From Bacteroidota bacterium (lineage in GTDB: Bacteria; Bacteroidota; Bacteroidia; Flavobacteriales_D; Parvicellaceae), in contig JAZADZ010000102.1 of the NCBI GenBank assembly GCA_036123135.1, positions 7,767 through 71,766 on the forward strand: a stretch of 64,000 nt of DNA, given 5' to 3'. Of this stretch, positions 2,647-64,000 are shown in pieces. A program made the position numbers and the translations under genes. Under the pieces are notes generated by a model that worked only from the letters and a program-made list of their open reading frames with translations, did no database searches and was not told the origin of the DNA. The stretch's first letter is position 1; the number at the start of each line of letters is the position of its first letter.

Positions 2647-2671
2647 TATCAACCTAATATTAGTTAATTTT

Positions 2672-2698
2672 ACACCTGTGGGAGATGCCCACAGGTGT
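2672..2698 (+). terminator. Perfect 11-bp hairpin (acacctgtggg / cccacaggtgt) between the first two operon genes; attenuator or terminator-like
   Basis: Inverted repeat read directly in the sequence. It is followed by an AT-rich stretch (atttaaatttta) rather than a clean T-run. Confidence 0.4.
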
Positions 2699-2714
2699 AT
2701 TTAAATTTTAAATC

Positions 2715-7735: not shown

Positions 7736-7771
7736 ATTATACCCTATTTAAGGTATTGTCAAAAACTGGTA

Positions 7772-8886: not shown

Positions 8887-8924
8887 TAATCTTTCTATTT
8901 TTGGATAAATGGTAAATTAGCTGA

Positions 8925-10175
8925 GTGATTTTAAAGCATAATTTACTCAAAACGCTTGGTCCTGGAATTCTTTTCGCAAGCACTGCAATTGGTGTATCTC
9001 ATCTAGTTCAATCAACAAGAGCAGGAGCAGATTATTCTTTTGGATTGTTGATTGCAATTGTTCTCGCAAATGTACTGAAGTACCCTTTTTTCGAATATGG
9101 TTCAAGATATGCCAATGATACAAAAACAAGTCTCATTGACGGATATATGAAAATTGGAAAGTGGATGTTGGCGCTCTACTTTATCCTTACAGTTGGAACA
9201 ATGTTTTTTGTCACTGCCGCTGTAGGTATGGTTACTGCAGGTTTTATGGAAAATCTTTTTGGTATTCAAATTCCAATGCTAATGACCACTATTCTATTTT
9301 TGCTCTGTCTTACAATTTTAGTTGTTGGGAAATACAGCGTTTTAGACAGTTTGATTAAAATCGTAGGTGCAGTTTTGTTATTATCCACAGTAGTTGCATT
9401 CATACTTACTTTAATTCATGGTCCTGTTAATGAACAAGCTTTTTCTCTTACTTCAGGTTTTTGGACCAATAAAAAAGACATTGGCTTCTTAATAGCTCTA
9501 ATGGGTTGGATGCCTACTGCAATTGACCTATCCACTTGGAATAGTTTGTGGACTCTGGAAAGAATAAAACAAACTAAGTACACTCCAACTATGAAAGAAA
9601 CCCTATTTGATTTTAACCTTGGATATATTCTATCAGCCGTTTTATCAATATGTTTTGTAACTCTAGGAGCTTATATCATTTATGGTAGCGATGTTCCCAT
9701 TTCCAATAATAAGGCGGAATTTGCCAATGATGTTGTCAACCTCTACTCCTACACCATAGGCAGCTGGAGCTACTTCATAATTGCTGCAGCGGCATTTTCG
9801 ATAATGTTTGGAACCTGCATCGCTGTTTTTGATGGCTATGCAAGAAGTTTAAACAGAAGTATTGAACTGTTATTTTTAAATGAATCAATAAGAAATAATG
9901 CGAAAAAAACTCAATTAATCACACTAACTATACTTTCTTTGGGAGCTTTTCTAATCATACTTTATTTTAGCAATAATCCAACTGGATTTAAAAAGCTGAT
10001 TGACTTGGCTACCACCCTATCTTTCTTAGTTGCACCCTTAGTTGCAATAGTCAATTTTAAATTAGTAATGCAATACATTTCCAAAAAGAATCGTCCGAAA
10101 CCTTGGCTGCAAATTTTAAGCTATTTGGGAATAATTTTTTTAGTTGGGTTCAGCATTTACTTTTTTACAATTTAA
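8925..10175 (+). CDS. Nramp-family divalent metal (Mn2+/Fe2+) transporter
   Basis: N-terminus LGPGILFASTAIGVSHLVQSTRAGADYSFGLL matches the Nramp consensus. About 11 hydrophobic helices. Confidence 0.75.
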   Translation: MILKHNLLKTLGPGILFASTAIGVSHLVQSTRAGADYSFGLLIAIVLANVLKYPFFEYGSRYANDTKTSLIDGYMKIGKWMLALYFILTVGTMFFVTAAVGMVTAGFMENLFGIQIPMLMTTILFLLCLTILVVGKYSVLDSLIKIVGAVLLLSTVVAFILTLIHGPVNEQAFSLTSGFWTNKKDIGFLIALMGWMPTAIDLSTWNSLWTLERIKQTKYTPTMKETLFDFNLGYILSAVLSICFVTLGAYIIYGSDVPISNNKAEFANDVVNLYSYTIGSWSYFIIAAAAFSIMFGTCIAVFDGYARSLNRSIELLFLNESIRNNAKKTQLITLTILSLGAFLIILYFSNNPTGFKKLIDLATTLSFLVAPLVAIVNFKLVMQYISKKNRPKPWLQILSYLGIIFLVGFSIYFFTI

Positions 10176-12082
10176 TCATTGTATATTTAACTTTTATTAA
10201 CTACAACCGTACCTTGAGATACCCAATTACACTTAGTATATTATTCATTTCTGTCAGCTTTTTCCCCCAGAAGAAAATTAAATTAAGTTCAATTGCTTAC
10301 AGTACTGTCAATCCTGTTCAATTACAAGACATATGGGAGATTAATCTTCAAAGTAAGGAAATGCCCAATCCTGACGGTAATTCTGAAAAAGATCAACTGC
10401 TCAGATTAAAAAATAAGTTAGCTCTTGTGTATCCAAGAAAAAATACTGGTAATAAGTCAATAATTAGCAATGACTCAATTATACAAGATCTAATTATTGA
10501 AGAGGGCTTTGATGGTAATCCATATAACAACAGAGTTCCCAATGATAATACATTAGCCATATCCAAGGATGGAATTTTGATTTTAGGAATCAACTCTAGG
10601 TATTTATTCTACGATACAAATGACGACTCTTTCCTTGGAGCGGGAAGCCTTCATTTATTTACCACTGGTTTTCCGCAATTTAATACCGTTAGCAAATACG
10701 ATCCAAAATTCATTTATGATCCAAATGAAGACCGATTTATAATCACTTTTCTAATCGGAACATCGCATCAAAATAGTAATATTTGTGTAGCTTTTTCCTC
10801 CACCAACGATCCCTCCGATGATTGGAACGTTTATCTCTTGAGTGGTGATCCACTTGAAACTGAACATTGGACAGACTATCCTGCAATTTCACTTTCGGAG
10901 GACGAACTATTCATCACAGGAAATCTATTGGCGAATGGAGTTAGCTGGCAGCTTGGATTTCAACAATCATTAATCTGGCAAATAGATAAATTCGATGGAT
11001 ACAACGGAGAAACAGATTTAGATTTTCAAGTCTGGAGTGACATTAAAGACGATACTATTTCTGTAAGAAATATTCATCCTGTTAGAGGAGCTAGAGCCCT
11101 AAGAGGACCCAACCAATTTCTACTGAGCAACAAAAACTTTTCAGCTGAAAGTGACACTGTTTATCTCATAGAAATAACTAATACACTTAATAGTGGAAAC
11201 GCACAATTAAACCTTACAAAACTTTCTTTGGAAGAGCACTACTTTTTAAGTCCTAATGGAAAACAGTCAATTGCAAAAGAACTTTCAACCAATGATTCTA
11301 GAATGCTTGGTGCTATTGTCGATGACAATTGGATTCAGTATGTACATCATTCAATGGATACTGCATATGGAACTTCTGGTATTTTCCATGGCATTATAGA
11401 AAATTATTCAACTGAACCGGTAATTAGCGGTAAAATTATTTCGGACAGTATCATGGATTATGGGTATCCAAATATCGCTTCTACTGGAATAAATCCAAAT
11501 GAAAAGGAATGTGTTATTGGCTTTAATTACACTTCCCCAGTAGATACTAATGGTGTTGCTTGTTGTTATATGGATAACTCTTCAAACTACAGCGATAGAA
11601 TAATACTCAAAAGAGGAGATGCTCCCATAAATTCATTCGTCTCAGGTTCAATCGACAGATGGGGAGATTATTTTGGAATTCAGCGAATGTACAGCGAACC
11701 GTGTAAAGTATGGATGTCCGGAATGTATGGTAAAATTAGCAGTAACGCGAGTTGGGTTAGTAAGGTCGCTGTCTCAGATACTTGTAGAAATCCAGATCCA
11801 ATTGTTTCCTTTGATCCTCCATACAACAACGGAACACTTTTTCCTAACCCTGCCGTTGACTGGATGATTTACGATTTTTCTGTTGATGAAATACAAATGG
11901 TTTCTATAGGACTTTTTGACATTAAAGGAAAACTCATCAAAGTTCTTTTCGAAGATGCAATTAGCGCTGGTGAAAATAGACTAACATTCAATACATTCTT
12001 TCTAGAAAAGGGGATGTATATTCTTAGGGTAACTTCAGGAAATAAGATTTTATCTTCAAAGAAATTCGTAAAAGCTTACTAA
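10103..12082 (+). CDS. Secreted hypothetical protein with T9SS C-terminal sorting domain
   Basis: C-terminus FPNPAVDWMIYDFSV...GMYILRVTSGNKILSSKKFVKAY is Por/T9SS CTD-like. The track start (TTG 10103) overlaps the Nramp gene. TTG at 10214 would give MRYPITLSILFISVSFF, a better signal peptide. Confidence 0.6.
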   Translation: MAANFKLFGNNFFSWVQHLLFYNLIIVYLTFINYNRTLRYPITLSILFISVSFFPQKKIKLSSIAYSTVNPVQLQDIWEINLQSKEMPNPDGNSEKDQLLRLKNKLALVYPRKNTGNKSIISNDSIIQDLIIEEGFDGNPYNNRVPNDNTLAISKDGILILGINSRYLFYDTNDDSFLGAGSLHLFTTGFPQFNTVSKYDPKFIYDPNEDRFIITFLIGTSHQNSNICVAFSSTNDPSDDWNVYLLSGDPLETEHWTDYPAISLSEDELFITGNLLANGVSWQLGFQQSLIWQIDKFDGYNGETDLDFQVWSDIKDDTISVRNIHPVRGARALRGPNQFLLSNKNFSAESDTVYLIEITNTLNSGNAQLNLTKLSLEEHYFLSPNGKQSIAKELSTNDSRMLGAIVDDNWIQYVHHSMDTAYGTSGIFHGIIENYSTEPVISGKIISDSIMDYGYPNIASTGINPNEKECVIGFNYTSPVDTNGVACCYMDNSSNYSDRIILKRGDAPINSFVSGSIDRWGDYFGIQRMYSEPCKVWMSGMYGKISSNASWVSKVAVSDTCRNPDPIVSFDPPYNNGTLFPNPAVDWMIYDFSVDEIQMVSIGLFDIKGKLIKVLFEDAISAGENRLTFNTFFLEKGMYILRVTSGNKILSSKKFVKAY

Positions 12083-53455: not shown

Positions 53456-54030
53456 TGCCATTAAGTCCCTTGAAAAAATATGATGTTATTCTGGCCTCTA
53501 ACTCTCCTAGAAGACAGGAACTTTTAAAAAAACTCATTCCAAAATTTAAAATTCAAGTTGTTCCAATTGAAGAAAATTATCCAAAAGAATTAGCCAAAGA
53601 TCAGATTGCCAAATACTTATCCGAGCTTAAATCTGCTGCATATCAACCCACAAAAAATGAACTCATTATCACTGCAGATACCATTGTTTCAATTGGAAAT
53701 GAAGTTCTTGGAAAACCAAAAGATTCCAACGATGCTTTAGAAATGCTTATGAAGCTTTCCGGAAAATCACACTTGGTAACTACTGCAGTTTCAATAAAGA
53801 CCACTGAAAAATTAATTACGTTCAGCGATACTACTGAAGTTACTTTTTATAAGTTGACCTCACAAGAGATGGAGCAGTACATCAGGAATTGTCAACCCTT
53901 TGACAAAGCAGGATCATATGGAATCCAAGAATGGATGGGCTATTTTGGAATCAAAAAAATGAACGGTGATTACTTCAATGTAATGGGGCTGCCTCTTCAC
54001 AAGCTGTATCGAGCTTTAAAGAAGCTCTAA
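53455..54030 (+). CDS. maf: Maf-family nucleoside triphosphate pyrophosphatase
   Basis: ILASNSPRRQELLKKL, ITADTIV, KAGSYGIQ. Confidence 0.9.
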   Translation: MPLSPLKKYDVILASNSPRRQELLKKLIPKFKIQVVPIEENYPKELAKDQIAKYLSELKSAAYQPTKNELIITADTIVSIGNEVLGKPKDSNDALEMLMKLSGKSHLVTTAVSIKTTEKLITFSDTTEVTFYKLTSQEMEQYIRNCQPFDKAGSYGIQEWMGYFGIKKMNGDYFNVMGLPLHKLYRALKKL

Positions 54031-54488
54031 ATGAGCTGTTTTTCACAAAAATTAAAGCTCAAATTTTTAAACATATAATCAAAATCTTTTCCAGAATCAA
54101 TCATATCAAAGTCATCTGATTCGTACATCCATTCTACGTCAAAATCATAGCGGTCATCTTTAGCTTTTGCATCAATTATAGCAAATAGCTTGTACAACAT
54201 TCTAGCAGTTGAGGTATTGAAATAATCATAGTCAACCGTAATTTTCAAGGAAAAACCAGTGCTAATTTGGTTTAGAAAGCTTCTAATGCTATCGCATATT
54301 GGATCATAAAATTTGTCCGCGTCCTCAGGGTAAGAAACTCCTTTGATACTTAACCTATTCTCATTTAAATCCAGGAAAACATCTGGTGTATTTTTGGTTG
54401 ATTTTATTGCAAACAGAAACTCTTTCACATTATCATTGAATGATTTGGGTCCAAAATTAAATAGGATCCACAATGAGATACAATACAA
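54027..54488 (-). CDS. DUF1987 / SiaC-like protein (candidate partner-switch component)
   Basis: Pattern TPDVFLDLNENRLSIKGVSYPEDADKFYDPICDSIRSFL resembles DUF1987. The start is uncertain; GTG at 54428 would give a 133-aa product. Confidence 0.45.
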   Translation of the reverse strand: MYCISLWILFNFGPKSFNDNVKEFLFAIKSTKNTPDVFLDLNENRLSIKGVSYPEDADKFYDPICDSIRSFLNQISTGFSLKITVDYDYFNTSTARMLYKLFAIIDAKAKDDRYDFDVEWMYESDDFDMIDSGKDFDYMFKNLSFNFCEKQLI

Positions 54489-54511
54489 ACTTCCGAACGT
54501 CTAGTGCATAA

Positions 54512-54928
54512 TTACAATAGTGCTTCGACTGCCAACTTGTAAGAATTTAATCCAAATCCTGCAATAACCCCCTTACAGTTAGCTGCCATTAAAGACTGGC
54601 GCCTAAATTCCTCACGTGCATACACGTTGGAAATGTGCACTTCGATAGTTGGGGAATCTAAAGAGGCTACTGCGTCTGCTATTGCAACAGATGTATGTGT
54701 ATATCCCCCTGCGTTAAAAACAATTCCACTGTACGAAAACCCAACCTCTTGAAGTTTATTTACTAAATCACCTTCAACATTACTTTGATAATATTCTAAT
54801 TGAATAGACTCAAAACTAGATTTAAGCTCCTTAAAAAAATCTTCAAAAGTTATATTACCGTAAATTTCTGGTTGTCTTTTTCCAAGAAGATTGAGGTTAG
54901 GACCATTTATAATGATGATTTTTTTCAA
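54512..54928 (-). CDS. aroQ: Type II 3-dehydroquinate dehydratase
   Basis: IIIINGPNLNLLGKRQPEIYG, NAGGYTHTSVA, EVHISN. Confidence 0.95.
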   Translation of the reverse strand: MKKIIIINGPNLNLLGKRQPEIYGNITFEDFFKELKSSFESIQLEYYQSNVEGDLVNKLQEVGFSYSGIVFNAGGYTHTSVAIADAVASLDSPTIEVHISNVYAREEFRRQSLMAANCKGVIAGFGLNSYKLAVEALL

Positions 54929-54929
54929 A

Positions 54930-55328
54930 CTAACTGAAGAATTTTATGGATAGTGGATAGCTATATAATTCTCCATTGTTTGCCCTTATGGCCCCAATAA
55001 TAGTAAAAATCAATGAGCACAATGCTGTTGCGATTAGCGTAACAAAACCAACTATTAAAAAAGTTAAAAAAGCACTTATAATTAAATAAATGAAACAACT
55101 AATGATCCAATTCAGTACATTTTTACCATGCTCATCAACTAGTACACTTTGATCTTTATTAGTTTGCCACATAATAATTGGAAGAATCAAACCACCAAAA
55201 GGAAAAATAAATCCAGCAAATTGAGATAAGTGCATTAACAAACAAAACTGGTTAATGTTCATGCCCCAAAGTTTGAAATCTGAGGGTATTTCATTGAAAT
55301 TGGGATTAGATGTATTATCGTTGGTCAT
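54930..55328 (-). CDS. DUF4870-like small membrane protein
   Basis: Three or four TM helices and the loop MWQTNKDQSVLVDEHGKNVLNW, typical of that family. Confidence 0.5.
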   Translation of the reverse strand: MTNDNTSNPNFNEIPSDFKLWGMNINQFCLLMHLSQFAGFIFPFGGLILPIIMWQTNKDQSVLVDEHGKNVLNWIISCFIYLIISAFLTFLIVGFVTLIATALCSLIFTIIGAIRANNGELYSYPLSIKFFS

Positions 55329-55389
55329 TGTCGTTTAATAAGAATTTCACTAATGTAATAAAATACCTTAGCTTTTTTAACTCTATTAA

Positions 55390-55749
55390 CTATTTCACAT
55401 AATCTTGCTTTCTTACAAGGGCATAATTTTCATTTTCCAATTGAAGATAACCAAGCTCATAGACAAAATAATAGGTTTTTCCTTGTTTGGTTCTGTAAAT
55501 GTTGGTGTAATAATAGAAATTAAAACCGCTCAAAAGTAGTTGTTCTTTTGTGGTTTTTGCTTTTTCTCCTAGCATAAGGTTAGATAAAATTCTTCTGTTT
55601 TTTCTAAGCACAACGTTCACTTTTCGAACATAATCGTTGGCAACCTTATTTAAGTTGTTGTTGTATGTATTTCTACATTGATCGTTGCAGAACTTTTTAT
55701 CTGATCTGCCCATTAATTTAGAATCGCATTCCAAACAGAGTTTTTCCAT
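55390..55749 (-). CDS. Hypothetical protein with N-terminal zinc-ribbon (CLECDSKLMGRSDKKFCNDQC)
   Basis: 119-aa ORF, divergent from the recombinase gene. Four Cys are arranged CxxC...CxxxC. Confidence 0.45.
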   Translation of the reverse strand: MEKLCLECDSKLMGRSDKKFCNDQCRNTYNNNLNKVANDYVRKVNVVLRKNRRILSNLMLGEKAKTTKEQLLLSGFNFYYYTNIYRTKQGKTYYFVYELGYLQLENENYALVRKQDYVK

Positions 55750-55878
55750 CTATTTAATATACGACGAAAAACAAACTATTTCAAAAGATTAGTCAATTAA
55801 AAACAAGTTTATTCATTTAAAAGCGAATATAATCGTTTAAGAACCATCTAGATAAATTTCAATCTCAAATTTCGCAGT

Positions 55879-56712
55879 ATGAAACAGATCCCAAAAATAC
55901 AGCAACGGTTAATCATTAAAAGATACAGTCCATCAACAGTACGCACCTACCTTACTTGCTTGAAAAACTTCTTCGCACATTTTAAGAACCACAATACTGA
56001 AACGCTTTCCAAAGAAGAACTTCTTAACTATTTGGAACACTTAGTTCAAAAAGGGTATTCAAAGAGCACTCAAAATCAACACATTAATGCCATCAAATTT
56101 TATTATGAAAAATATTTAGAAAAAGAAAAGCAGTATTACTTTATTGATCGTCCAATAAAGGACAAAAGACTTCCAGTGGTGATGAGCAAAGAAGAAGTTC
56201 AACAGCTTTTAAATCAAGTCCACAATCTTAAACACAAAACTATTTTAATCCTCATCTATTCTTGTGGGCTAAGAATATCTGAATTGATTAATTTAAAAAT
56301 TGAAGACATCGACTCGAAAAGAATGTTAATTCAAATTCGAAATTCAAAAGGCAACAAAGACAGACAAGTTCAGCTTACCAACCAAATTCTTGTGTTAATT
56401 AAAAAGTACTACAAATCTTACTTTCCAAAAGAGTTTCTTTTTAACGGAATGCATGGAGGAAAATATTCTTCGGCTAGCATTCAAAAGATCATTAAGCGAA
56501 TGGCTCAAAGGTCAGGTATTCGAAAAAACATAACGCCACATACCTTACGACACAGCTTCGCAACTCACCTTCTTGAAGATGGTATTGACATTAGATACAT
56601 TCAAACCATTCTTGGCCACAGTAATATTCAAACTACACAGATTTACACCCACGTGTCCAGTAAACATCTTATAAACATCAAAAACCCTACTGATGACATG
56701 AATATTTTTTAA
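55879..56712 (+). CDS. Tyrosine recombinase, integron-integrase-like but compact (277 aa)
   Basis: SAM-like N-terminus (YSPSTVRTYLTCLKNFFAHF), RLPVVMSKEEV, catalytic R (CGLRISEL), HTLRHSFATHLLEDGIDIRYIQTILGHSNIQTTQIYTHV (H-x-x-R, H, Y). These blocks resemble IntI1/VchIntIA as I remember them. Only about 56 aa separate KDR from TPHTLRH. Confidence 0.8.
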   Translation: MKQIPKIQQRLIIKRYSPSTVRTYLTCLKNFFAHFKNHNTETLSKEELLNYLEHLVQKGYSKSTQNQHINAIKFYYEKYLEKEKQYYFIDRPIKDKRLPVVMSKEEVQQLLNQVHNLKHKTILILIYSCGLRISELINLKIEDIDSKRMLIQIRNSKGNKDRQVQLTNQILVLIKKYYKSYFPKEFLFNGMHGGKYSSASIQKIIKRMAQRSGIRKNITPHTLRHSFATHLLEDGIDIRYIQTILGHSNIQTTQIYTHVSSKHLINIKNPTDDMNIF

Positions 56713-56720
56713 CTTCATAC

Positions 56721-56761
56721 ATAACAAGAATAAACGTAATACGTTTATCCTATCGTTACCG
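56721..56761 (+). repeat. First recombination site (attI position), hairpin-type: ATAAC ... ataaacgt/acgtttat ... GTTACCG
   Basis: Starts 8 nt after the recombinase stop. Its GTTACCG (56755-56761) is the exact reverse complement of CGGTAAC at 57433-57439. Confidence 0.6.
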
Positions 56762-56775
56762 TACATAATTATAAA

Positions 56776-57426
56776 ATGAAAAAGACGACCTTAATATTAA
56801 TAACAATCTGTTTCGGAATTTTCATTTCATGTAATTCAAAAGATTCCAACTCTAAGACAAATTACAACAGTCAAGAAAAGTTTGAATTTCAAAATGGAGA
56901 TGTAATTTTTCAGACCTCCCAATCTAGACAAAGTAAAGCAATTCAGCTTGCTACAAACTCAAAGTATAGTCATGTTGGTATTATTTACAATAATTCAAAT
57001 AAACTATATGTTTTTGAAGCTGTTCAACCTGTTAAAATCACACCATTAGAAAGCTGGATTAAAAGAGGAAAAAATAAGCATTATGTTGTCAAAAGATTGA
57101 TTAATTCAAATGATGTTCTAGATTCAAAAACAATTTCAAAAATGAAACAAGCAGGAGAAAAATATCTAAATAAAAATTATGATATCTACTTCGAATGGAC
57201 TGATGATAAAATCTACTGCTCTGAATTAGTTTGGAAGATATATAAAGAAGCTGCAAACATTGAAATTGGTGAATTAGAAAAATTATCTGATTTTGATCTT
57301 ACAAACAATATTGTTAGAGAAATATTAAAAGAAAGATATGGCAATAATATTCCAATGGATGAAGTTGTAATTTCTCCTGAATCTATTTATAACTCAGATT
57401 TATTGGAAACAATTTATGAAAACTAA
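56776..57426 (+). CDS. Cassette 1: YiiX-family permuted papain-like (C92) lipoprotein
   Basis: Lipobox (FISC). GDVIFQTSQSRQSKAIQLATNSKYSHVGII and KIYCSELVWKIYKEA blocks typical of YiiX/YaeF. Confidence 0.7.
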   Translation: MKKTTLILITICFGIFISCNSKDSNSKTNYNSQEKFEFQNGDVIFQTSQSRQSKAIQLATNSKYSHVGIIYNNSNKLYVFEAVQPVKITPLESWIKRGKNKHYVVKRLINSNDVLDSKTISKMKQAGEKYLNKNYDIYFEWTDDKIYCSELVWKIYKEAANIEIGELEKLSDFDLTNNIVREILKERYGNNIPMDEVVISPESIYNSDLLETIYEN

Positions 57427-57432
57427 AACGCA

Positions 57433-57484
57433 CGGTAACAGTGTGTAAATTGCATAATAACGCAATTTACACGTTCCGTTGTAG
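57433..57484 (+). repeat. attC-type site B: CGGTAAC - 11-bp perfect stem (gtgtaaattgc / gcaatttacac) - GTTGTAG
   Basis: Read directly. Its left box complements site A's GTTACCG. Its GTTGTAG complements CTACAAC of site C. Confidence 0.75.
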
Positions 57485-57503
57485 AGCATTTAAAATAAAT
57501 AAA

Positions 57504-59627
57504 TTGAAAAAAATAATAATAATATTTTTTCTGACTTTAATATGTGATAATTATACAGCGCAATCAAATTATGACAGTCTTTGGAATGTATGGAATAACG
57601 TTGAAGAACCTGACTCAAATAGAATTAAATCATTATACACAATTGTAAAAGAAGTTTATTTAAATACAAATATAGATAGTGCACTTATATTAGCTAAAAA
57701 AGTCAATGGTCTTGCTCTATCTTCAAAAGTGAATCTTCACATATCAAAATCATATATTTTATTAGGTGCTATATATTTTAGAAGTAAAGATTATTCCCAA
57801 GCTATTACAAGTTATAATCAAGCTTTAGTATACGCTAAAAAAAGTAATTCTTTTGAAGAAATAATAGTATCATATACAGGTTTAGGAATAGGCTATAAAT
57901 CGATAGGAGACTTTAATAATGCATTTATTTATTTAGAAAAATCATTAGAAAAGTCAAACACTTATAAAAACTACAACAAAAATAGCATACTAAATAGTTT
58001 AGGTAACCTATTCTCCGAGCAAGAAAAATACCAAGATGGGCTAAAATATTATAAGGAAGCTTTTGATTATGCTTCAGATGAAGACAAAATAACAATTTAT
58101 TATAATATAGGAGCATGTTACATTGAACTAGAAGAGACACAAAAAGCTATAAAACAACTTAACAACGCTTTAATTCTAGCAAAACGTTTTGATGATTTAA
58201 TTTCTCAAATTTACTGTCACAGTGCTTTAAGTTCAGCATATTTAGATACTAAAGAATATACTAAAGCAAAAATAAATCTAGAATTAGAAAGCAATTTAGT
58301 TTCTAACCTTCAAAATGATTTTTATAATGCCATATTATATTTTGATTACGGAAATTATTTTTTAAGTAAGCAAGAAAATAAATCAGCTATTAATTATTTC
58401 AAAAAAGCATTTTTACTTTTTGAAAAACATGAAAGTTTTTCTGACTTATTAGCCATTTCTGAAAATTTATATGAAGCTTACGAAAAAACAAACGATTTAA
58501 GAAATGCATTAAAATATTATAAACTATTTGTTAATTATCAGAACAAAATAATCAATGATGAAATAAAAGAAAAATCTATATCCCAATTAACTAAGCATGA
58601 AATTGAAAAGAAACAACTGATAAAAGACCAAAAACAAAAAGAAGCTGCCAAGATTGCAAGAATCGAACAATTAAAAAAAGATGCTATTGCAAAAAAAGAA
58701 TCTGAAAACAAAAACTTTTTACTAATTACTAGCCTAGTAATTATAATTTTGGTAATAATATTTACCATAATTTTAATTAGCCGTTTAAGAATCACTACTA
58801 AACAAAAAGGCATTATAGAAAAGCAGAAGAAAAAGGTAGATAATGCATACAGTCAGCTTGAAGAAAAGAATCTTGAGATTCTAGACTCAATACAATATGC
58901 CAAAAGGTTACAACAAGCTATTCTTCCACCTAAAAAACTTGTAAAAGAGTGGTTGCCCAACTCATTTGTTCTATACAAACCTAAAGATATTGTAGCAGGA
59001 GACTTTTACTGGATGGAAAATATTAATGAATGGATATATTTTGCAGCAGCAGATTGCACAGGACATGGTGTACCAGGGGCTATGGTATCGGTAGTGTGTT
59101 CAAACGCACTTAGTGTCGCCTTACTTGATGAAGGTAAAACAAAACCATCAGAGATTCTCAACAGAACAAGAGAGTTAGTTATAGAACGTTTTGAAAGGTC
59201 TGAAGAAGAGATCAAAGACGGTATGGATATTTCTCTTTGTGCTCTAAATTACAAAACAGGTAAGATGCAATGGGCGGGTGCAAACAATCCTCTCTGGATA
59301 ATACGTAGTGGATCTGACGTAATAGAGGTTATTCGTGGAGATCAACAACCTATCGGCATTTATGTAACAAGTGATCCATTTCACAACCATGAAATAAAGC
59401 TTCAAAAAGGAGATTGTATCTATATTTTCACTGATGGCTATCCTGATCAATTTGGAGGAGAAAAGAACAAAAAGTATAAAACCACCACACTTAAACGATT
59501 TTTACTTACTATTCAAGATAAAGATATGGAAACTCAACGCAAGCTGCTAAGCAAAGAATTTGATAATTGGAAAGCAGACTTTGAGCAAGTTGATGATGTA
59601 TGTGTGATTGGGGTTAAAACAGTGTAA
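57504..59627 (+). CDS. Cassette 2: TPR-repeat / TM / PP2C-SpoIIE phosphatase (paralogue of 30772-32826)
   Basis: TTG at 57504 gives MKKIIIIFFLTLICDNYTAQ; the track start 57441 lies inside attC site B. TPR units, TM helix (LLITSLVIIILVIIFTIILI), YAKRLQQAILPP...AGDFYWM...DCTGHGVPGAMVS...TDGYPDQFGG...DDVCVIGVK. Confidence 0.8.
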   Translation: MKKIIIIFFLTLICDNYTAQSNYDSLWNVWNNVEEPDSNRIKSLYTIVKEVYLNTNIDSALILAKKVNGLALSSKVNLHISKSYILLGAIYFRSKDYSQAITSYNQALVYAKKSNSFEEIIVSYTGLGIGYKSIGDFNNAFIYLEKSLEKSNTYKNYNKNSILNSLGNLFSEQEKYQDGLKYYKEAFDYASDEDKITIYYNIGACYIELEETQKAIKQLNNALILAKRFDDLISQIYCHSALSSAYLDTKEYTKAKINLELESNLVSNLQNDFYNAILYFDYGNYFLSKQENKSAINYFKKAFLLFEKHESFSDLLAISENLYEAYEKTNDLRNALKYYKLFVNYQNKIINDEIKEKSISQLTKHEIEKKQLIKDQKQKEAAKIARIEQLKKDAIAKKESENKNFLLITSLVIIILVIIFTIILISRLRITTKQKGIIEKQKKKVDNAYSQLEEKNLEILDSIQYAKRLQQAILPPKKLVKEWLPNSFVLYKPKDIVAGDFYWMENINEWIYFAAADCTGHGVPGAMVSVVCSNALSVALLDEGKTKPSEILNRTRELVIERFERSEEEIKDGMDISLCALNYKTGKMQWAGANNPLWIIRSGSDVIEVIRGDQQPIGIYVTSDPFHNHEIKLQKGDCIYIFTDGYPDQFGGEKNKKYKTTTLKRFLLTIQDKDMETQRKLLSKEFDNWKADFEQVDDVCVIGVKTV

Positions 59628-59638
59628 TGTTAAACGCC

Positions 59639-59693
59639 CTACAACACAGTCTAAACCAAATTACTTAACTTGGTTTAGCCAGACCGTTAGTAG
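59639..59693 (+). repeat. attC-type site C: CTACAAC-acagtctaaacc...ggtttagcc-agacc-GTTAGTAG
   Basis: Read directly. Imperfect hairpin with a 3-4 nt bulge (gcc) on the 3' arm. Confidence 0.8.
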
Positions 59694-59713
59694 TAATTTA
59701 AATAACTTTAATT

Positions 59714-60406
59714 ATGAAAAAATTATCCTCAATTATATATATATGTCTAATATTAAGTAGCTATGGACAAAGTAAAAAGGAATTACACGCATCAATTGAA
59801 AGAATGAAAAATGATTCAATATCCATGACTAAAATAATTTCTCAACATGAATCAAGTATAACTCAACACAAATCAACCATAATTAAAAAAGATGAAATTA
59901 TATCAAAACTTAATATTGAAGCTAATTCCATTAAAAAGAAATTAGATGATCTAATTATCTTGAATCAAAATTTAGAAGAAAAAATAAACGATTTTAATAT
60001 TAAATTAATCAACACGAACGATTCATTAAAATATTTAAATGAAATTTTAAAGTCAAATAGTGAATCTATAAACACTAAAGACCTTATGAAATGGAGAATT
60101 ACCTATTTCGAAGGTGTAGTAGATTATTATGATTCATATGATGGTTTAGATGCTTTATATGTTAATCTAAAAAACGGAAACAAAATAACTTTTTACACAT
60201 CAGCTGGTGATGGATTAGAATGGGTAGAAATAAAAGATAAAAATCCCCCATATACATATAATTTAAATGGCTGTTATTTTGAAGGCGGCTGCAGAATTAG
60301 AGGGTACTATGGTAAAGGTTACTATGGTGGGTATGGATCACCATCTGGAAGTGGCGGCATATCTCCAGGAATTGTAAATAGAATTGTTTACGTTGAAAAT
60401 TATTGA
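59714..60406 (+). CDS. Cassette 3: secreted hypothetical protein (signal peptide, about 100-aa coiled-coil-like region, Gly/Tyr-rich C-terminal domain)
   Basis: MKKLSSIIYICLILSSYGQSKK..., heptad-like low-complexity stretch, C-terminus YYGKGYYGGYGSPSGSGG. Confidence 0.5.
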   Translation: MKKLSSIIYICLILSSYGQSKKELHASIERMKNDSISMTKIISQHESSITQHKSTIIKKDEIISKLNIEANSIKKKLDDLIILNQNLEEKINDFNIKLINTNDSLKYLNEILKSNSESINTKDLMKWRITYFEGVVDYYDSYDGLDALYVNLKNGNKITFYTSAGDGLEWVEIKDKNPPYTYNLNGCYFEGGCRIRGYYGKGYYGGYGSPSGSGGISPGIVNRIVYVENY

Positions 60407-60413
60407 CCCAACA

Positions 60414-60468
60414 CTACTAACACAGTCTAAACTAAATTGTATAAAATAGTTTAGCCGCAACGTTATGG
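60414..60468 (+). repeat. attC-type site D: CTACTAAC-acagtctaaact...agtttagcc-gcaac-GTTATGG
   Basis: Read directly. Its arms are nearly identical to those of site C. Confidence 0.8.
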
Positions 60469-60493
60469 TTAATTGTTGTAAAAAATAATAAAT

Positions 60494-61618
60494 ATGAAAA
60501 AACAGAATAATATATTTTTATTGATTCTTTTTATCGCTCTTTTTTCAAGTTGCAACAATGAAGAAAATAATAAAATAATAGAAGAACCCGTAGATGAACA
60601 ATCAAAAATAAATAGAGACCCGGACGATAGAAAGGATTTTGCAAATGTTTACTGGAAAAAACAATACACTTTATTTGATCTAATAACTGATGAACCAATT
60701 TTCCCTGTGAATGTAAATGGGACTCTCATTTATAAAATCTATTATTCAAGCAACGAAGATCCAAACCCATACTACAAAGAGTTTACAGCTGAACAATTAG
60801 AAAATCACCTATTCTATAAATTTAAAAACAAAGAAAATTGTATGATTTTCTGTAATAGAAAAAAGCAAAACGAAAATGGAAAAAAGCCAGATCCTAACAT
60901 AACTTATTCTTTAAAGGAAGCATTGGCAAATGATTTTATTAAAATATCAGCAGATGGTAATGGTACTTACCGTAATATTAAATTAAATTTAGAAAACAAA
61001 TCAGACGCTAGTTGTAAGCTTACACTTCCCGCCGGTTTGTATTTTGAAAACCCAGATGACAAATCACAAAGTCTTATAACCGCAAAAAAAATAGATATAA
61101 TAACGATAGATGACAAACAAAAGTTCAGCCTAGATGTACCTTCATTTTGTACCAATGTAAAGCAAAGTGTGCCCGGATTATTAAAAGATTGGAATCATAA
61201 TCCAAATTATAATGGTGGATTAGATGAGGTTATCGCTTTTTATGGTAAATATGAAAAGGGTATCAACAAATGGTTAGAGAAAAAAAATAAAGAATTTTCA
61301 GATGAAAATAAACGGATGCTATTTTTTCAAACAGTTATTTGGTATCATGAAGGTGCTCAATATCAAGAAATACTAGAAATGTTGAAAAATGATGTTTTCA
61401 AAAATGATATTGAAAAAGCTAAAGTATGGTTAGACAATATTCAGCAAGAAGCTTCTCAATTAGCGCAATTGATTAAAGAACGAGATTCAGAAAAAATTAA
61501 AACCTGGCTTAAAGAAAAAACTTTAGAATTAATCCCAACGTCTGAACAAGTCGATGAAGCAGTTGACAAAGGGAAGAAAACGCTTGATAAGTTTCGAAAC
61601 AGACTAAAGGGGAGATAA
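60494..61618 (+). CDS. Cassette 4: hypothetical lipoprotein (374 aa)
   Basis: Lipobox (LFSSC). No family recognised. Confidence 0.5.
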   Translation: MKKQNNIFLLILFIALFSSCNNEENNKIIEEPVDEQSKINRDPDDRKDFANVYWKKQYTLFDLITDEPIFPVNVNGTLIYKIYYSSNEDPNPYYKEFTAEQLENHLFYKFKNKENCMIFCNRKKQNENGKKPDPNITYSLKEALANDFIKISADGNGTYRNIKLNLENKSDASCKLTLPAGLYFENPDDKSQSLITAKKIDIITIDDKQKFSLDVPSFCTNVKQSVPGLLKDWNHNPNYNGGLDEVIAFYGKYEKGINKWLEKKNKEFSDENKRMLFFQTVIWYHEGAQYQEILEMLKNDVFKNDIEKAKVWLDNIQQEASQLAQLIKERDSEKIKTWLKEKTLELIPTSEQVDEAVDKGKKTLDKFRNRLKGR

Positions 61619-61626
61619 AAACCAGC

Positions 61627-61680
61627 CCATAACAAAAGTTAAACTGCATTAAAACGCAGCTTAGCCAAAACGTTAAAGGC
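61627..61680 (+). repeat. attC-type site E: CCATAAC-aaaagttaaact-gcattaaaacgc-agcttagcc-aaaac-GTTAAAGGC
   Basis: Read directly. Shares the TAAAC / TTAGCC arm cores with sites C and D. Confidence 0.75.
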
Positions 61681-61705
61681 AATTAAAAAGTAGAACGTTT
61701 TAAAT

Positions 61706-62344
61706 ATGAGTAATGAACGACCAACATTCAAAGAATGGGTTGCTGAGAATCCCAGAAAAAGTATCAATGACTATTACAAAATATATGGTACTGAATTTTC
61801 AGATTCAACTGCAAAAGTAAAGACAAAACCAACCCAACAGAGTTATTCAAATGATTTTAATAGTTATTCAGTTGATAGTAAAATGGCTTTCAATTCTTTA
61901 CAGATTATTTGTATGATTTTCTCTGGCATTATGACTGCATCTTATTTTTTACCTTGGCTTGAATATAATGTTATGGGCCAAAATCTTGTTAGTGTTACAG
62001 GTTTTGAAGTGCCAAAGATGATTCAAGATATTGAACAATTTAAAAACATGTTCCGTACTGATAAAACATATAATTCTCCAAATATATTTTATGTGTTGCA
62101 TTTGTTTCCAATTTGTGGTGTAGGAATATTAATTTCAGTTATTTCAAAAACAAATGTTTTCCGTTTTCTTGGAGAGTTAACAATTATCATAATTATGTGT
62201 TGGTTTATACATAAACTAGTGGCACTTCAAACAAATTCAGTTATAAAAATGTCGATATTAGATTTCGCTGGTCTTGGACTGTTTTTTTCTGTCATTTGTT
62301 CAATATATTTTCTTTTTGATTTATTGAAATTAATTACAAAATGA
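61706..62344 (+). CDS. Cassette 5: hypothetical membrane protein (about 4 TM helices)
   Basis: 212-aa ORF with a soluble N-terminal segment of about 60 aa, then hydrophobic helices. Confidence 0.5.
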   Translation: MSNERPTFKEWVAENPRKSINDYYKIYGTEFSDSTAKVKTKPTQQSYSNDFNSYSVDSKMAFNSLQIICMIFSGIMTASYFLPWLEYNVMGQNLVSVTGFEVPKMIQDIEQFKNMFRTDKTYNSPNIFYVLHLFPICGVGILISVISKTNVFRFLGELTIIIIMCWFIHKLVALQTNSVIKMSILDFAGLGLFFSVICSIYFLFDLLKLITK

Positions 62345-62347
62345 ACA

Positions 62348-62458
62348 GCCTACAACAACAAACAAGCGACATTTTTTTTATAATTGAATAGGTTCCGCTG
62401 AGGCTTCACCGGAATAATAAGGTAAAAAAACGCGTGCCTGTTTGCAGGCCGTTAACTT
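62348..62458 (+). repeat. attC-type site F (long, 111 nt): GCCTACAAC ... two internal short hairpins ... GTTAACTT
   Basis: Boxes read directly. Internal stems ttccg/cggaa and gcctg/caggc. The global arm pairing is less obvious than in sites B-E. Confidence 0.55.
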
Positions 62459-62464
62459 AATTAA

Positions 62465-63403
62465 ATGAAAATAAGTTCGATGAAAAAAACAGTTTTATGC
62501 ACTGCAATGGTTTTTTTAATATTCATTGCAAATGCTCAAAGTAAAAAGCAACAAATTGAAAGCCTCACTATTTCAATTGATAGCTTGAACCAATTAATTA
62601 CTAATGAACGTAATAATTTTAATTTTACAATAGATAGCTTAAATAAGCTTCTTAGGTACAGTCAACAAAATTTTGATTTAAAGATTACGAATTCTAATGA
62701 TAAAATTAAAAATCTGATTATAGAACAAAATAAATTAAATTCTATAAATGATTCGATTAATCGTGAGCTTAATATTATAAAAAAAGAAAAACTAATATTA
62801 AATCAAAAATTTTCTATTCTTAGCAAAAATGTTGATTCACTAAAGCAACAAATATTAGAATTTAACAAAAATACATCAATAAACTCATTTCGTAATTCTA
62901 TTAAATTTGAGAACTTTTTATTTTATTTCTTATCTACAGTTTACTCTGAAAAAAATATAGATAGCTTAATTTATGTTTCTTCTCCAATGATTTTGGACTT
63001 GATTGATAATAACATTGGCTTTGGACGGTTTTGGAATATGGGTGCTACTTGTAATTTATTCAATTCCGATGGATTTGGCTATAATTTTTATGAAGATTAC
63101 TTTGGTAAAACAGAGCCCAAAATATTAAATTATGCTTTTTTCAAAAATCAAAAACCAGAAGGTGGACTCTGTGAAGAAGCATCTACTTCAAATGGAATTT
63201 ATTACAGCCAGATCAATAAACTTCCAGAAGATTGGGATATGGAAAAAGATGAATCAATTCCTTCACCACAAAAGTTAAATTATTTAAAAAAATTTATAGT
63301 TCAAATTCAATACGATTCTTGGATAGTAAAAACTTTTTATTTTGTTGAATCAAACAATAAATGGTTTTTACTTTACATTTATGATTGCGATTGCAGTTCC
63401 TAA
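62465..63403 (+). CDS. Cassette 6 ORF a: secreted hypothetical protein (signal peptide, coiled-coil-like N-terminal region, Cys-containing C-terminal domain)
   Basis: ...FIANAQSKKQQIESL... Its architecture parallels the cassette 3 protein. Confidence 0.5.
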   Translation: MKISSMKKTVLCTAMVFLIFIANAQSKKQQIESLTISIDSLNQLITNERNNFNFTIDSLNKLLRYSQQNFDLKITNSNDKIKNLIIEQNKLNSINDSINRELNIIKKEKLILNQKFSILSKNVDSLKQQILEFNKNTSINSFRNSIKFENFLFYFLSTVYSEKNIDSLIYVSSPMILDLIDNNIGFGRFWNMGATCNLFNSDGFGYNFYEDYFGKTEPKILNYAFFKNQKPEGGLCEEASTSNGIYYSQINKLPEDWDMEKDESIPSPQKLNYLKKFIVQIQYDSWIVKTFYFVESNNKWFLLYIYDCDCSS

Positions 63404-63467
63404 AAGGAACAAACGCTCATTATAAATAAATTGAATTAAAACGTAATTTACTTCAAAATATTTAATA

Positions 63468-63995
63468 ATGAATGTATTAGATAAAATGAAAAAAGTAATG
63501 CCAATTATCGGAGTAATCCTTTTTGCTTCATTAATTCTATCAAACTGTGATTCAAACTCAGAAACCAAAGTTGTTGATACTTCTAATTCAATAAATACAT
63601 CTAAAAAATCTACAATCCCTGAACTTTCAAAAGAATTTTTAGGAAATTATCATGGTATTCAGCCCAGTTATTTTATGAAGAACCAATATGGTGACGATAT
63701 GGTAATTGCTGGAAACAAGGTTCCTGTTCCATCAAGTGATTTTAAATTTTTATTGAAAGAAAATAATGTTGTTAGTTTACAACAAACAAATTCAGAGGAT
63801 AACAGCAGATATTATTATAACGGAAATTACAAAATTTTAAGTGATGATTCAGGTTTCATTAAAACTGAGTGTTCACTGAGCGATGGACAAGGATCTTCAC
63901 CTACTTATATTTTAGAAATAAGTAAAACTGATAAAATAGGAAAGTGTATTGGCAAAACAAATGAACCTGAATTTCAAATTTCAAAAATTAAATAA
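63468..63995 (+). CDS. Cassette 6 ORF b (or a separate cassette): hypothetical lipoprotein (175 aa)
   Basis: Lipobox (ILSNC). No family recognised. Confidence 0.5.
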   Translation: MNVLDKMKKVMPIIGVILFASLILSNCDSNSETKVVDTSNSINTSKKSTIPELSKEFLGNYHGIQPSYFMKNQYGDDMVIAGNKVPVPSSDFKFLLKENNVVSLQQTNSEDNSRYYYNGNYKILSDDSGFIKTECSLSDGQGSSPTYILEISKTDKIGKCIGKTNEPEFQISKIK

Positions 63996-64000
63996 AACCG

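What the first reader, a model, noticed from the sequence alone, without database searches (positions are those of the whole stretch)
55879..56712. The array-associated recombinase is IntI-like in motifs but seems to lack the IntI-specific insertion, and it faces the same way as the cassettes
The 277-aa protein has blocks I recognise from integron integrases: RLPVV(M/L)(S/T)xxEV, G(L/M)RISE, TPHTLRHSFATxLLxxGxDIRxxQxxLGHSxxxTTxIYTHV. Between the KDR block and TPHTLRH it has only about 56 residues (QVQLTNQILVLIKKYYKSYFPKEFLFNGMHGGKYSSASIQKIIKRMAQRSGIRKNI). As I recall, IntI1 and VchIntIA carry roughly 100 residues there. That stretch includes the additional domain regarded as diagnostic for IntI and implicated in recognising extrahelical bases of folded attC. 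The gene is also co-directional with the cassettes and its 3' end abuts the first site. Classical integrons have a divergent intI with attI at its 5' side. An inverted orientation has been described for a minority group such as Treponema denticola. If this enzyme drives the array, it would be a Xer-sized cassette recombinase. I cannot verify from here whether that is novel.
Basis: partly seen in the sequence, partly recalled or inferred. Interest (0 to 1): 0.85.

Follow-up and report, generated by a model that had tools for sequence, protein, structure and literature searches.

The report
Integron-like gene-cassette array with Xer-sized integrase
A marine Flavobacteriales genome carries a working-looking integron (a platform that captures mobile gene cassettes) whose recombinase lacks the extra domain that textbooks treat as indispensable for integron integrases, so that assumption can now be tested directly.

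Summary
ORF 55879-56712 (+) encodes a 277-aa tyrosine recombinase with a complete catalytic set. It has 58 residues between the KDR arginine and the HxLRH histidine. Fifteen integron integrases have 100-101, XerD has 66 and XerA 60-62. The IntI-specific insertion (I2 helix) is absent from the sequence, from profile matches and from the predicted structure.

Its stop codon is followed 3 nt later by a conserved hairpin site, then by at least five complete cassettes, all co-directional. Each ends in an attC-like site (R''..AAC, L'', L', GTTR..).

The cassettes behave as mobile units. The bases after GTT of one site pair with the bases before AAC of the next. Identical or 98% identical cassettes sit at different positions in related genomes, and their boundaries fall exactly at GTT. 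Contigs more than 99.6% identical through the recombinase diverge completely after the first site's GTT. Stem covariation and a 29:2 excess of bottom-strand G·T wobbles show that the bottom-strand hairpin is under selection, as in classical integrons.

Related insertion-less recombinases head attC arrays across Bacteroidota. No canonical IntI lies within 10 kb of any of them. I found no prior description. Catalysis by this enzyme is inferred, not shown.

The parts
55879..56712 (+). Gene for a 277-aa tyrosine recombinase without the IntI insertion: N-terminal SAM-like domain plus catalytic domain. Catalytic residues R132, K157, H221, R224, H247 and Y256.
56716..56765 (+). Site A, the attI-equivalent primary site. 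It has a vestigial R'' (CATAAC, 56720-56725) and a short hairpin AATAAACGT/ACGTTTAT (56729-56748). The insertion point is GTT at 56755-56757. The site is conserved in related loci, and homology between strains ends at its GTT.
   Evidence: (24 bits, not in the training set)
56756..57478 (+). Cassette 1. The ORF 56776-57426 is a Peptidase_C92 lipoprotein. It ends in attC B (57430-57488; AAC 57437-57439, GTT 57478-57480). It is 98.4% identical to a cassette at a different array position in L098/L099.
57479..59686 (+). Cassette 2. The ORF is a TPR plus SpoIIE/PP2C phosphatase. It ends in attC C (59636-59696; AAC 59643-59645, GTT 59686-59688).
59687..60462 (+). Cassette 3. The ORF 59714-60406 has no Pfam match. 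It ends in attC D (60412-60472; AAC 60419-60421, GTT 60462-60464).
60463..61672 (+). Cassette 4. The ORF 60494-61618 is a lipoprotein-like protein with no Pfam match. It ends in attC E (61624-61682; AAC 61631-61633, GTT 61672-61674).
61673..62451 (+). Cassette 5. The ORF 61706-62344 is a membrane protein with no Pfam match. It ends in the long attC F (about 62347-62460; AAC 62354-62356, GTT 62451-62453; bottom-strand fold -21.9 kcal/mol, z -4.2).
62452..64000 (+). Incomplete sixth cassette with two ORFs (62465-63403 and 63468-63995). No matching R'' occurs before the end of the window, so the array runs off the window.

Best explanation
This is a sedentary chromosomal integron in a marine Flavobacteriales genome whose integrase is a Xer-sized simple tyrosine recombinase lacking the IntI additional domain (I2 helix). 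The gene is transcribed towards the array. Three nucleotides after its stop codon lies a conserved primary site (site A). Circular cassettes are inserted at the GTT of site A (shown by comparison of strains). Each cassette carries one imperfect-palindrome attC site. In the excised circle its R'' (NNNNNNNAAC) pairs with the cassette's own first bases (GTTNNNNNNN), giving a 10-11 bp R stem, an asymmetric internal loop and an L stem with an invariant TAAA/TTTA core (shown). The bottom strand folded as a hairpin is the selected form (shown statistically). Inferred: the recombinase binds the R and L duplex parts of the folded bottom strand. It cleaves within AAC (opposite G|TT), exchanges one strand with site A or another attC, and replication resolves the product, as in classical integrons and in CTX-phage integration by XerC. 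Also inferred: polarity and avoidance of second-strand exchange come from the sequence-specific L box and the asymmetric spacer, not from extrahelical bases docked onto I2.
For: Absence of I2.
Location of sites: the covariance model gives 62 full-length hits in the window and 16 loci (14 family loci plus the more distant L009 and L034). All are on the + strand and all downstream of the recombinase stop. None lie in the 55.8 kb upstream in the window or in any upstream flank.
Cassette-circle signature: the 7 nt after GTT of site n are complementary to the 7 nt before AAC of site n+1 at a mean of 5.5/7 (n=21). The value is 2.25/7 for 579 other pairs and 2.1/7 within a site.
Folding: reconstituted attC bottom strands fold as R stem, asymmetric loop and L stem.
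Mobility: a 1,624-bp cassette is 100% identical in L005 and L006 at different positions, with identity starting at (C)GTT and ending at GTT. L004, L005 and L006 are at least 99.6% identical through the recombinase up to site A's GTT and random afterwards. Window cassette 1 is 98.4% identical to a cassette at position ~6 in L098/L099, while the recombinase 3' end and site A are ~84% identical.
Structure: 7 of 10 L-stem pairs show compensatory changes, covariation 0.38 against 0.09, 0/500 shuffles.
Strand: in 43 distinct sites there are 29 top-strand A·C (equal to bottom-strand G·T) against 2 top-strand G·T, p=5e-7. The bottom-strand fold is more stable in 36 of 43.
Linkage of enzyme and array: the same family heads arrays in at least four different chromosomal contexts and on a plasmid, and in divergent orientation in Psychroserpens. 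There is only one tyrosine recombinase within +-10 kb of every array and in the whole window.
Against: No experiment shows that this protein recombines these sites. Deleting the additional domain abolishes IntI1 activity, and the domain is held to confer single-strand recombination (PMC7790495, citing Messier & Roy 2001 and MacDonald 2006). An enzyme without it is therefore unexpected. The distal end of the array and the rest of the genome were not seen, so a canonical IntI elsewhere is not excluded. The covariance model was trained on sites from these same arrays, and the alignments used for covariation and strand tests were fitted to it. Related sites are not independent observations. The neighbour-joining tree does not resolve the backbone. 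No clearly bulged extrahelical bases were found, only a 1x1 mismatch and an asymmetric loop, so the polarity mechanism is a guess.
Confidence: 0.72

Rival explanations
1. The recombinase is the cell's chromosome-dimer resolvase, a single Xer like XerS, XerH or XerA whose dif site lies next to its gene. Site A would be dif, and the cassettes would be IMEX-like elements that exploit it. The enzyme would still move the cassettes, but that would be a by-product of a housekeeping function.
For: The best NCBIfam match is the archaeal XerA model, above its cut-off, and the best solved relatives are XerA structures. The gene keeps a fixed chromosomal position (ResB...aroQ) across relatives of 60-84% identity. 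Cumulative GC skew reaches a minimum near 56-60 kb. XerC integrates CTX-phage from a folded single strand without any I2 (PMC7790495).
Against: Family members occur in several unrelated contexts and on plasmids. In Psychroserpens the array is on the gene's 5' side. The crossover is at a GTT 6-7 nt outside site A's palindrome, not inside a dif-like core. The skew change coincides with the start of AT-rich, uniformly oriented foreign genes and is not diagnostic in 64 kb. The protein fails the XerC and XerD cut-offs. From general knowledge, Flavobacteriia carry XerC/XerD; this was not checked in these genomes.
Confidence: 0.12
2. The array is a cluster of attC sites serviced in trans by a canonical IntI encoded elsewhere, or now lost. 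The Xer-like gene would be only a neighbour whose 3' flank happens to hold the insertion site.
For: IntegronFinder-type criteria would label this a CALIN, and such clusters are common (PMC9024848). The distal end of the array and the rest of the genome were not seen.
Against: The adjacency of recombinase, site A and array recurs in many lineages and contexts down to about 44% identity. It includes an instance in the opposite arrangement. This is not expected for a passive neighbour. No IntI lies within 10 kb in any locus. Complete integrons are almost unknown in Bacteroidetes (PMC9024848). Recent cassette turnover is seen between strains with identical recombinase.
Confidence: 0.1
3. The enzyme drives the array but works on double-stranded sites with two strand exchanges, as ordinary Xer, Cre or lambda-type enzymes do. 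The palindromes would then be paired binding sites, not folded substrates.
For: The protein has no I2, the element thought to enable single-strand recombination. IntI itself retains weak double-strand activity (PMC4792948, PMC7790495).
Against: The stems are kept by compensatory changes, not by sequence. The 29:2 asymmetry of A·C against G·T and the more stable bottom-strand folds imply one particular strand folds. R'' pairs with the cassette's own 5' end, which has no role in a duplex site. The spacers next to the crossover differ between recombined partners (AAACC against GCAAC). That would block a 6-8 bp overlap exchange.
Confidence: 0.05
4. The gene belongs to an IS91-type transposable unit (tyrosine recombinase plus Y2 transposase), as in other Bacteroidota.
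For: A 36%-identical relative forms such pairs in L083. A 54%-identical truncated relative lies next to ISCR2 in tet(X3) plasmids.
Against: No Y2/IS91 transposase ORF is adjacent here or in any family locus. The downstream genes are cassettes. The gene has a fixed chromosomal position.
Confidence: 0.01

Closest known systems
Integrons of the 'inverted integrase' group (Treponema denticola type), archaeal integrons and sedentary chromosomal integrons in general
   Same: A tyrosine recombinase gene is transcribed towards a co-directional array, with the primary site at its 3' side. The attC sites have R''-L''-L'-R' architecture with AAC...GTTR. The crossover is at GTT. Cassettes are mostly of unknown function, plus toxin-antitoxin and defence genes. 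The bottom-strand hairpin is under selection. The element sits at a fixed chromosomal site with strain-specific content.
   Different: Those integrases all carry the IntI additional domain (stated for archaeal IntIs in PMC9668308). This one does not. The L box here has a conserved TAAA/TTTA core and no obvious bulged extrahelical bases. The primary site is itself a mini-hairpin resembling an attC.
IntI1 / VchIntIA (canonical integron integrases; PDB 2a3v)
   Same: Same N-terminal domain type (PF13495), same catalytic residues, 32-33% identity, and a similar C-terminal tail (K-N/S-P-T/L-D against VRSPLD). Foldseek TM-score to 2a3v is 0.72.
   Different: About 42 residues in three insert blocks are missing. 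The protein is below the TIGR02249 and NF011946 cut-offs. It lies outside the 100%-supported IntI clade in the neighbour-joining tree.
XerA of archaea (PDB 4a8e, 5hxy; NCBIfam NF040815)
   Same: It is the best sequence and profile match (40% identity; 243.5 bits against a cut-off of 220), with the same size and no insertion.
   Different: XerA resolves chromosome dimers at dif on duplex DNA. It is not linked to cassette arrays, and the host here is bacterial.
XerC-catalysed integration of single-stranded CTX-phage at dif (an IMEX)
   Same: It is a precedent for a Xer-type enzyme without I2 recombining a folded single-stranded hairpin with a duplex site by one strand exchange, resolved by replication (PMC7790495).
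   Different: It needs XerC plus XerD and the chromosomal dif. It moves whole phage genomes, not promoterless gene cassettes each carrying its own structured site.
[quoted passage not shown]
   Same: It is probably how current software would file this array, because the neighbouring recombinase fails the IntI-specific test.
   Different: Here a specific recombinase family is consistently attached to the array, so the array is not orphaned.

Membership tests
Integron integrase (IntI) | Tyrosine recombinase catalytic residues R-K-H-R-H-Y | tested here: met
   R132, K157, H221, R224, H247 and Y256 are invariant in the family and aligned with IntI1, VchIntIA, XerD and XerA.
Integron integrase (IntI) | IntI-specific additional domain (I2 helix) between the beta hairpin and HxLRH | tested here: not met
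   58 residues against 100-101 in 15 IntIs. The region profile scores 7.5 bits against 140-181. The matches to 2a3v and TIGR02249 are split. The model has no extra helix.
Integron integrase (IntI) | Score above the curated cut-off of TIGR02249 / NF011946 | tested here: not met
   226.2 bits against 265, and 142.9 against 435.
Integron integrase (IntI) | Membership of the IntI clade in a phylogeny | tested here: not met
   In the neighbour-joining tree the IntI clade has 100% bootstrap and excludes this family. The family is its own 100% clade inside a Bacteroidota radiation. The backbone is unresolved and the IntI sample is mostly proteobacterial.
Integron integrase (IntI) | Catalyses attI x attC and attC x attC recombination on folded bottom strands | not testable with these tools
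   Only comparative evidence is available.
Integron (system) | Array of cassettes, each ending in an attC site with R''-L''-L'-R' architecture and a GTTR core | tested here: met
Integron (system) | Cassettes are discrete mobile units with boundaries at G|TT | tested here: met
   Own-cassette complementarity, identical cassettes at different positions with boundaries at GTT, and a shared cassette between diverged genomes.
Integron (system) | Primary insertion site (attI) next to the integrase gene | tested here: met
   Site A is conserved, and strain-to-strain homology ends at its GTT.
Integron (system) | Divergent intI with attI at its 5' side (classical layout) | tested here: not met
   The layout here is co-directional with the site at the 3' side. 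This layout is known for the inverted group, and the relative in L021 has the classical layout.
XerC / XerD | Score above the curated equivalog cut-offs (TIGR02224, TIGR02225) | tested here: not met
   208.5 bits against 335.15, and 218.5 against 329.6. The N-terminal domain fits PF13495 better than PF02899.
XerC / XerD | Acts at a dif site at the replication terminus | tested here: inconclusive
   The GC skew in 64 kb is confounded by the foreign array. The genome is not available.
XerA (NF040815) | Score above the curated cut-off | tested here: met
   243.5 bits against 220. RefSeq names relatives 'xerA: site-specific tyrosine recombinase/integron integrase'.
XerA (NF040815) | Archaeal chromosome-dimer resolution at dif | not testable with these tools
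   The host is bacterial (Flavobacteriales / Crocinitomicaceae by nearest relatives). Function was not assayed.
IS91-associated tyrosine recombinase | Adjacent Y2 (IS91-family) transposase gene | tested here: not met
   None occurs in the window or in family loci. Compare L083, which has one.

The most novel reading that the evidence does not exclude
A large, mainly Bacteroidota lineage of simple tyrosine recombinases performs integron-type capture of single-stranded folded cassettes without the I2 domain. It would be either a surviving pre-I2 stage of integron evolution or an independent invention from a Xer-like ancestor. I2 would then not be required for attC recombination. Many orphan attC clusters would be complete integrons of a second class, and the phylum would hold a large unrecognised cassette reservoir, possibly the source context of tet(X3).
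Probability: 0.55. Interest if true: 0.92.

Novelty: new variant of a known kind. Interest (0 to 1): 0.85.

Why it matters
The IntI additional domain is used to define integron integrases and is built into detection software. It is held to be what allowed single-strand recombination. The causal link has never been tested directly, because deleting the domain kills IntI1 (PMC7790495). A natural enzyme family without it, attached to arrays that show every comparative sign of integron-type cassette traffic on the bottom strand, makes that question testable. It gives a concrete candidate for the Xer-like ancestor state. It would reclassify some 'attC clusters without integrase', and it would add Bacteroidota, where complete integrons are reported as nearly absent (PMC9024848), to the integron-bearing phyla. 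Cassettes seen here include restriction/McrBC systems, toxin-antitoxin pairs and a 9.3-kb metal-efflux module. A truncated relative sits directly upstream of the tigecycline-resistance gene tet(X3).

Tried and rejected
- An exact-match look-up of the window protein found nothing.
- The metagenome scan gave only short contigs.
- Two home-made hairpin and link detectors were far too noisy in this AT-rich DNA. I replaced them with tests anchored on model hits, on the first GTT after the stop codon and on site-to-site links. The site-to-site test is strand-symmetric and cannot give orientation.
- The narrow covariance model misses long attC sites, such as site F and most sites of L007, L010 and L017. 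Array lengths are therefore underestimated.
- GC skew could not settle the dif question.
- Eight literature searches found no description of such a system. [quoted passage not shown]
- The IS91-unit reading was rejected on gene content.
- I could not check for XerC/XerD or a canonical IntI elsewhere in the same genomes.

Full report
**1. The observation**

The ORF at 55879-56712 (+) encodes 277 aa with PF13495 (61.7 bits) and PF00589 (156.3 bits).

NCBIfam gives these scores:

| Model | Bits | Cut-off | Note |
|---|---|---|---|
| NF040815 recomb_XerA_Arch ('site-specific tyrosine recombinase/integron integrase') | 243.5 | 220 | above cut-off |
| TIGR02249 integron integrase | 226.2 | 265 | two stretches |
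| TIGR02225 XerD | 218.5 | 329.6 | |
| TIGR02224 XerC | 208.5 | 335.15 | |
| NF011946 IntI | 142.9 | 435 | two stretches |

Against solved structures the best match is P. abyssi XerA (4a8e, 5e-50). VchIntIA (2a3v) matches in two pieces that skip its residues 197-242.

I checked my typed IntI1 and VchIntIA sequences against annotated intI1 genes (100%) and against 2a3v. In the alignment, IntI1 and VchIntIA carry three insert blocks, about 42 residues in all. The window protein, its relatives, XerD and XerA all lack them.

Over 105 sequences the distance from the KDR arginine to the HxLRH histidine is as follows:

| Group | Residues |
|---|---|
| 15 IntIs | 100-101 |
| XerD | 66 |
| XerA | 60-62 |
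| Window protein and its Bacteroidota relatives | 58-59 (63 in L017) |

A profile built from that IntI region scores 140-181 bits on IntIs. It scores 7.5 bits on the window protein, over the last 22 positions only.

The AlphaFold model (pLDDT 83) goes from the beta hairpin (150-165) through helices 168-181 and 198-211 to the HxLRH helix, with no extra element. Foldseek returns XerA and VchIntIA. The insertion is therefore absent.

**2. The array**

The stop codon is at 56710-56712. Behind it lie six sites, A to F, all on the + strand and each after a + strand ORF.

A covariance model built from 12 sites was run without filters over the whole window. It hits only 56716-61682. Nothing is found in the 55.8 kb upstream. 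Site A was not in the training set and still scores 24 bits.

The sites read R'' (..YAAC), a 2-3 nt spacer, L'' (..YTAAA..), a loop, L' (..TTTAG..), a 4-6 nt spacer, and R' (GTTR...). The window holds only one tyrosine recombinase.

**3. The cassettes are mobile units of the integron kind**

- **Own-cassette pairing.** The 7 nt after GTT of site n are complementary to the 7 nt before AAC of site n+1 at a mean of 5.5/7 over 21 links. Three low values were parsing errors. The mean is 2.25/7 for 579 non-consecutive pairs and 2.1/7 within a site. This is what excision and insertion at G|TT produce.
- **Folding.** When each attC is rebuilt with its own cassette start, the bottom strand folds as a 10-11 bp R stem, an asymmetric internal loop (4-5 nt against 2 nt) and an L stem.
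- **Strain divergence at site A.** Three contigs encode the identical recombinase P0100. They are at least 99.6% identical through the gene up to site A's '...CTCGTT' and unrelated (27-31% identity) afterwards.
- **A shared cassette at different positions.** L005 and L006 share a 1,624-bp cassette with no mismatch, at different positions. Identity starts at (C)GTT and ends at GTT.
- **A shared cassette between diverged genomes.** Window cassette 1 (56754-57484) is 98.4% identical to a cassette about six positions into the arrays of L098/L099. Their recombinase 3' end and site A are only ~84% identical to the window's.
- **A large cassette.** In L004, site A's GTTCTCTGC is matched 9.3 kb downstream by GCAGAGAAC. 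The pair brackets a Fur/RND/P-type ATPase module.

**4. The site is a folded single strand, and it is the bottom strand**

In 24 aligned sites, 7 of 10 L-stem pairs show compensatory changes. There are 47 double-change cells against 14 expected. The covariation score is 0.38 against 0.09, and 0 of 500 shuffles reach it. Slid registers collapse. The AAC/GTT and TAAA/TTTA cores do not vary.

In 43 distinct sites the non-Watson-Crick stem cells are 29 A·C against 2 G·T on the top strand, which means 29 G·T wobbles on the bottom strand (p=5e-7). The bottom-strand fold is the more stable one in 36 of 43 (Wilcoxon 7e-7).

Two caveats apply. The alignments were fitted to the model, and related sites are not independent.

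The spacers next to the crossover differ between recombined partners. This argues against a homology-dependent two-strand exchange.

**5. The link between enzyme and array**

- The family (53-99% identity, all without the insertion) is common in marine Flavobacteriales metagenomes.
- In L001, L004-L006, L098/L099 and L101-L103 the gene sits in the same ResB...Maf-aroQ-DUF4870 synteny as in the window. It is followed by different co-directional arrays.
- L007 and L104 have other contexts, again with arrays.
- All 62 full-length model hits lie on the + strand downstream of the stop codon. They fall in the window, 14 family loci and the two more distant loci L009 and L034.
- More distant relatives (44-51% identity) also start perfect GTT-tail to AAC-head chains from the first GTT after their stop codon, with longer, canonical-looking attC sites. 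These are L010 (Flavobacteriaceae), L017 (Aquiflexum), L026, L022, L025 and L032.
- Controls on upstream flanks gave 0-1 links.
- In Psychroserpens (L021, 45% identity, also without the insertion) the array is divergent with the primary site at the gene's 5' side, which is the classical layout.
- Fulvitalea axinellae plasmid pFA3 carries a relative annotated 'xerA: site-specific tyrosine recombinase/integron integrase', followed by four model hits.
- No locus with an array has a second tyrosine recombinase within 10 kb.

**6. Relationship to known families**

In a neighbour-joining tree (270 columns, 100 bootstraps) the IntIs form a 100% clade. That clade includes the one true IntI among the fetched loci, L084. 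The window family is a separate 100% clade inside a Bacteroidota radiation.

The backbone joining these to the alphaproteobacterial/IS91-type, CPR and archaeal XerA groups is unresolved. E. coli XerD was the chosen outgroup. Identity is 40% to XerA, 32-33% to IntIs and 31% to XerD.

Two features are shared with IntIs. One is the PF13495-type N-terminal domain. The other is a C-terminal K(N/S)P(T/L)D tail resembling IntI's VRSPLD.

I therefore do not file the protein as an IntI, because the defining domain was tested and is absent. It is not an XerC or XerD either. It works like an integron integrase and resembles XerA in sequence.

**7. Literature**

Reviews and tools define IntI by the additional domain (PMC2426708, PMC9668308). 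PMC7790495 states that I2 is necessary for cassette capture and confers single-strand recombination. It also states that direct proof is lacking because deletion inactivates IntI1.

IntegronFinder 2.0 reports essentially no complete integrons in Bacteroidetes apart from Salinibacter (PMC9024848). [quoted passage not shown] They do not link the insertion-less members to cassettes.

Eight full-text searches found no description of such arrays. The library lacks most subscription journals, so prior work cannot be excluded.

**8. Rivals and verdict**

The main open alternative is that the enzyme is also, or primarily, a single-Xer dimer resolvase with site A as dif, and the cassettes are IMEX-like riders. 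GC skew in 64 kb cannot decide this, and I could not look for xerC/xerD in the same genomes.

A trans-acting canonical IntI is unlikely, given how the recombinase travels with arrays across contexts and orientations. It is not excluded.

The evidence is strong that this is a genuine, recently active integron-type array. It is good but indirect that the insertion-less recombinase drives it.

Noticed in passing
L106 (NZ_CP041297.1, Acinetobacter indicus p80-1-2-tetX3) 5022-7200: The truncated 'xerD'/'tpnF' gene directly upstream of tet(X3) is 54% identical to window residues 50-276. Between it and tet(X3) lies a site-A-like hairpin plus GTT (GTGGATATATACGCCATTTGGCGTATAGCCACTTGTTATGTGCC). After the tet(X3) stop comes GGCTACTAAC followed by sequence similar to the centre of an attC of L022 (score 47 against a shuffle maximum of 25). 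So tet(X3) sits in a first-cassette position. The R''/R' match is only 4/7 and the attC is cut by the res/ISCR2 junction.
   Followed up: partly
L083 (Prolixibacteraceae MAG) 2560-4649 and 9908-12003: A pair of a 301-aa tyrosine recombinase (36% identical, no IntI insertion) and a 391-aa IS91-family Y2 transposase occurs twice. Each copy is inserted right after an attC site ending GTTGAACTAA, inside a minus-strand cassette array. This suggests an IS91-type element that targets attC sites.
   Followed up: partly
L021 (Psychroserpens sp. AS72) 5234-10813: A 45%-identical recombinase without the IntI insertion has the classical divergent layout. An attI-like site lies at its 5' side (GTTGTAGGC), matched by GCCTACAAC at the end of the first minus-strand cassette. 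Long (~140 nt) attC sites follow.
   Followed up: partly
L107 (Fulvitalea axinellae DSM 100852 plasmid pFA3) 9512-20073: A cultured strain carries a relative (47% identical) that RefSeq annotates as 'xerA: site-specific tyrosine recombinase/integron integrase'. It is followed by co-directional small ORFs and four attC model hits. This is a convenient experimental host.
   Followed up: partly
L101-L103 11.4-20.9 kb; L104 11.6-18.9 kb; L004 10.9-20.3 kb: Cassette content in relatives includes McrBC and a type II/IV restriction-helicase module, SymE/HTH toxin-antitoxin pairs on the opposite strand, and one 9.3-kb cassette with Fur, an RND efflux pump and a P-type ATPase.
   Followed up: no
window 54000-64000: GC content drops from about 0.34 to 0.29 at the start of the array. 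GC skew turns from negative to positive there, and AT skew rises. This is consistent with foreign, uniformly oriented genes, but it also coincides with a cumulative-skew minimum.
   Followed up: partly
L088, L090-L093, L100: Many metagenome contigs that carry the recombinase end within about 50-500 nt after site A. This is as expected if assemblies break at a strain-variable array.
   Followed up: no
window 55390-55749 (-): A 119-aa cysteine-rich ORF (CxxC...CxxxC) with no Pfam match is transcribed divergently from the recombinase. It keeps that position in L001, L004-L006, L098 and L101, but not in L007 or L104.
   Followed up: no
window 63404-63467: An AT-rich hairpin lies between the two ORFs of the last, incomplete cassette (fold z-score -5.2). 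It has no AAC/GTT boxes and only a partial 16.9-bit model hit. It is probably a terminator or a degenerate site, not an attC.
   Followed up: no
L084 882-1817: This is the only fetched relative with a full IntI-type insertion (100 residues in the region), and it falls in the IntI clade. It shows the scan could pick up true IntIs when they were present.
   Followed up: no
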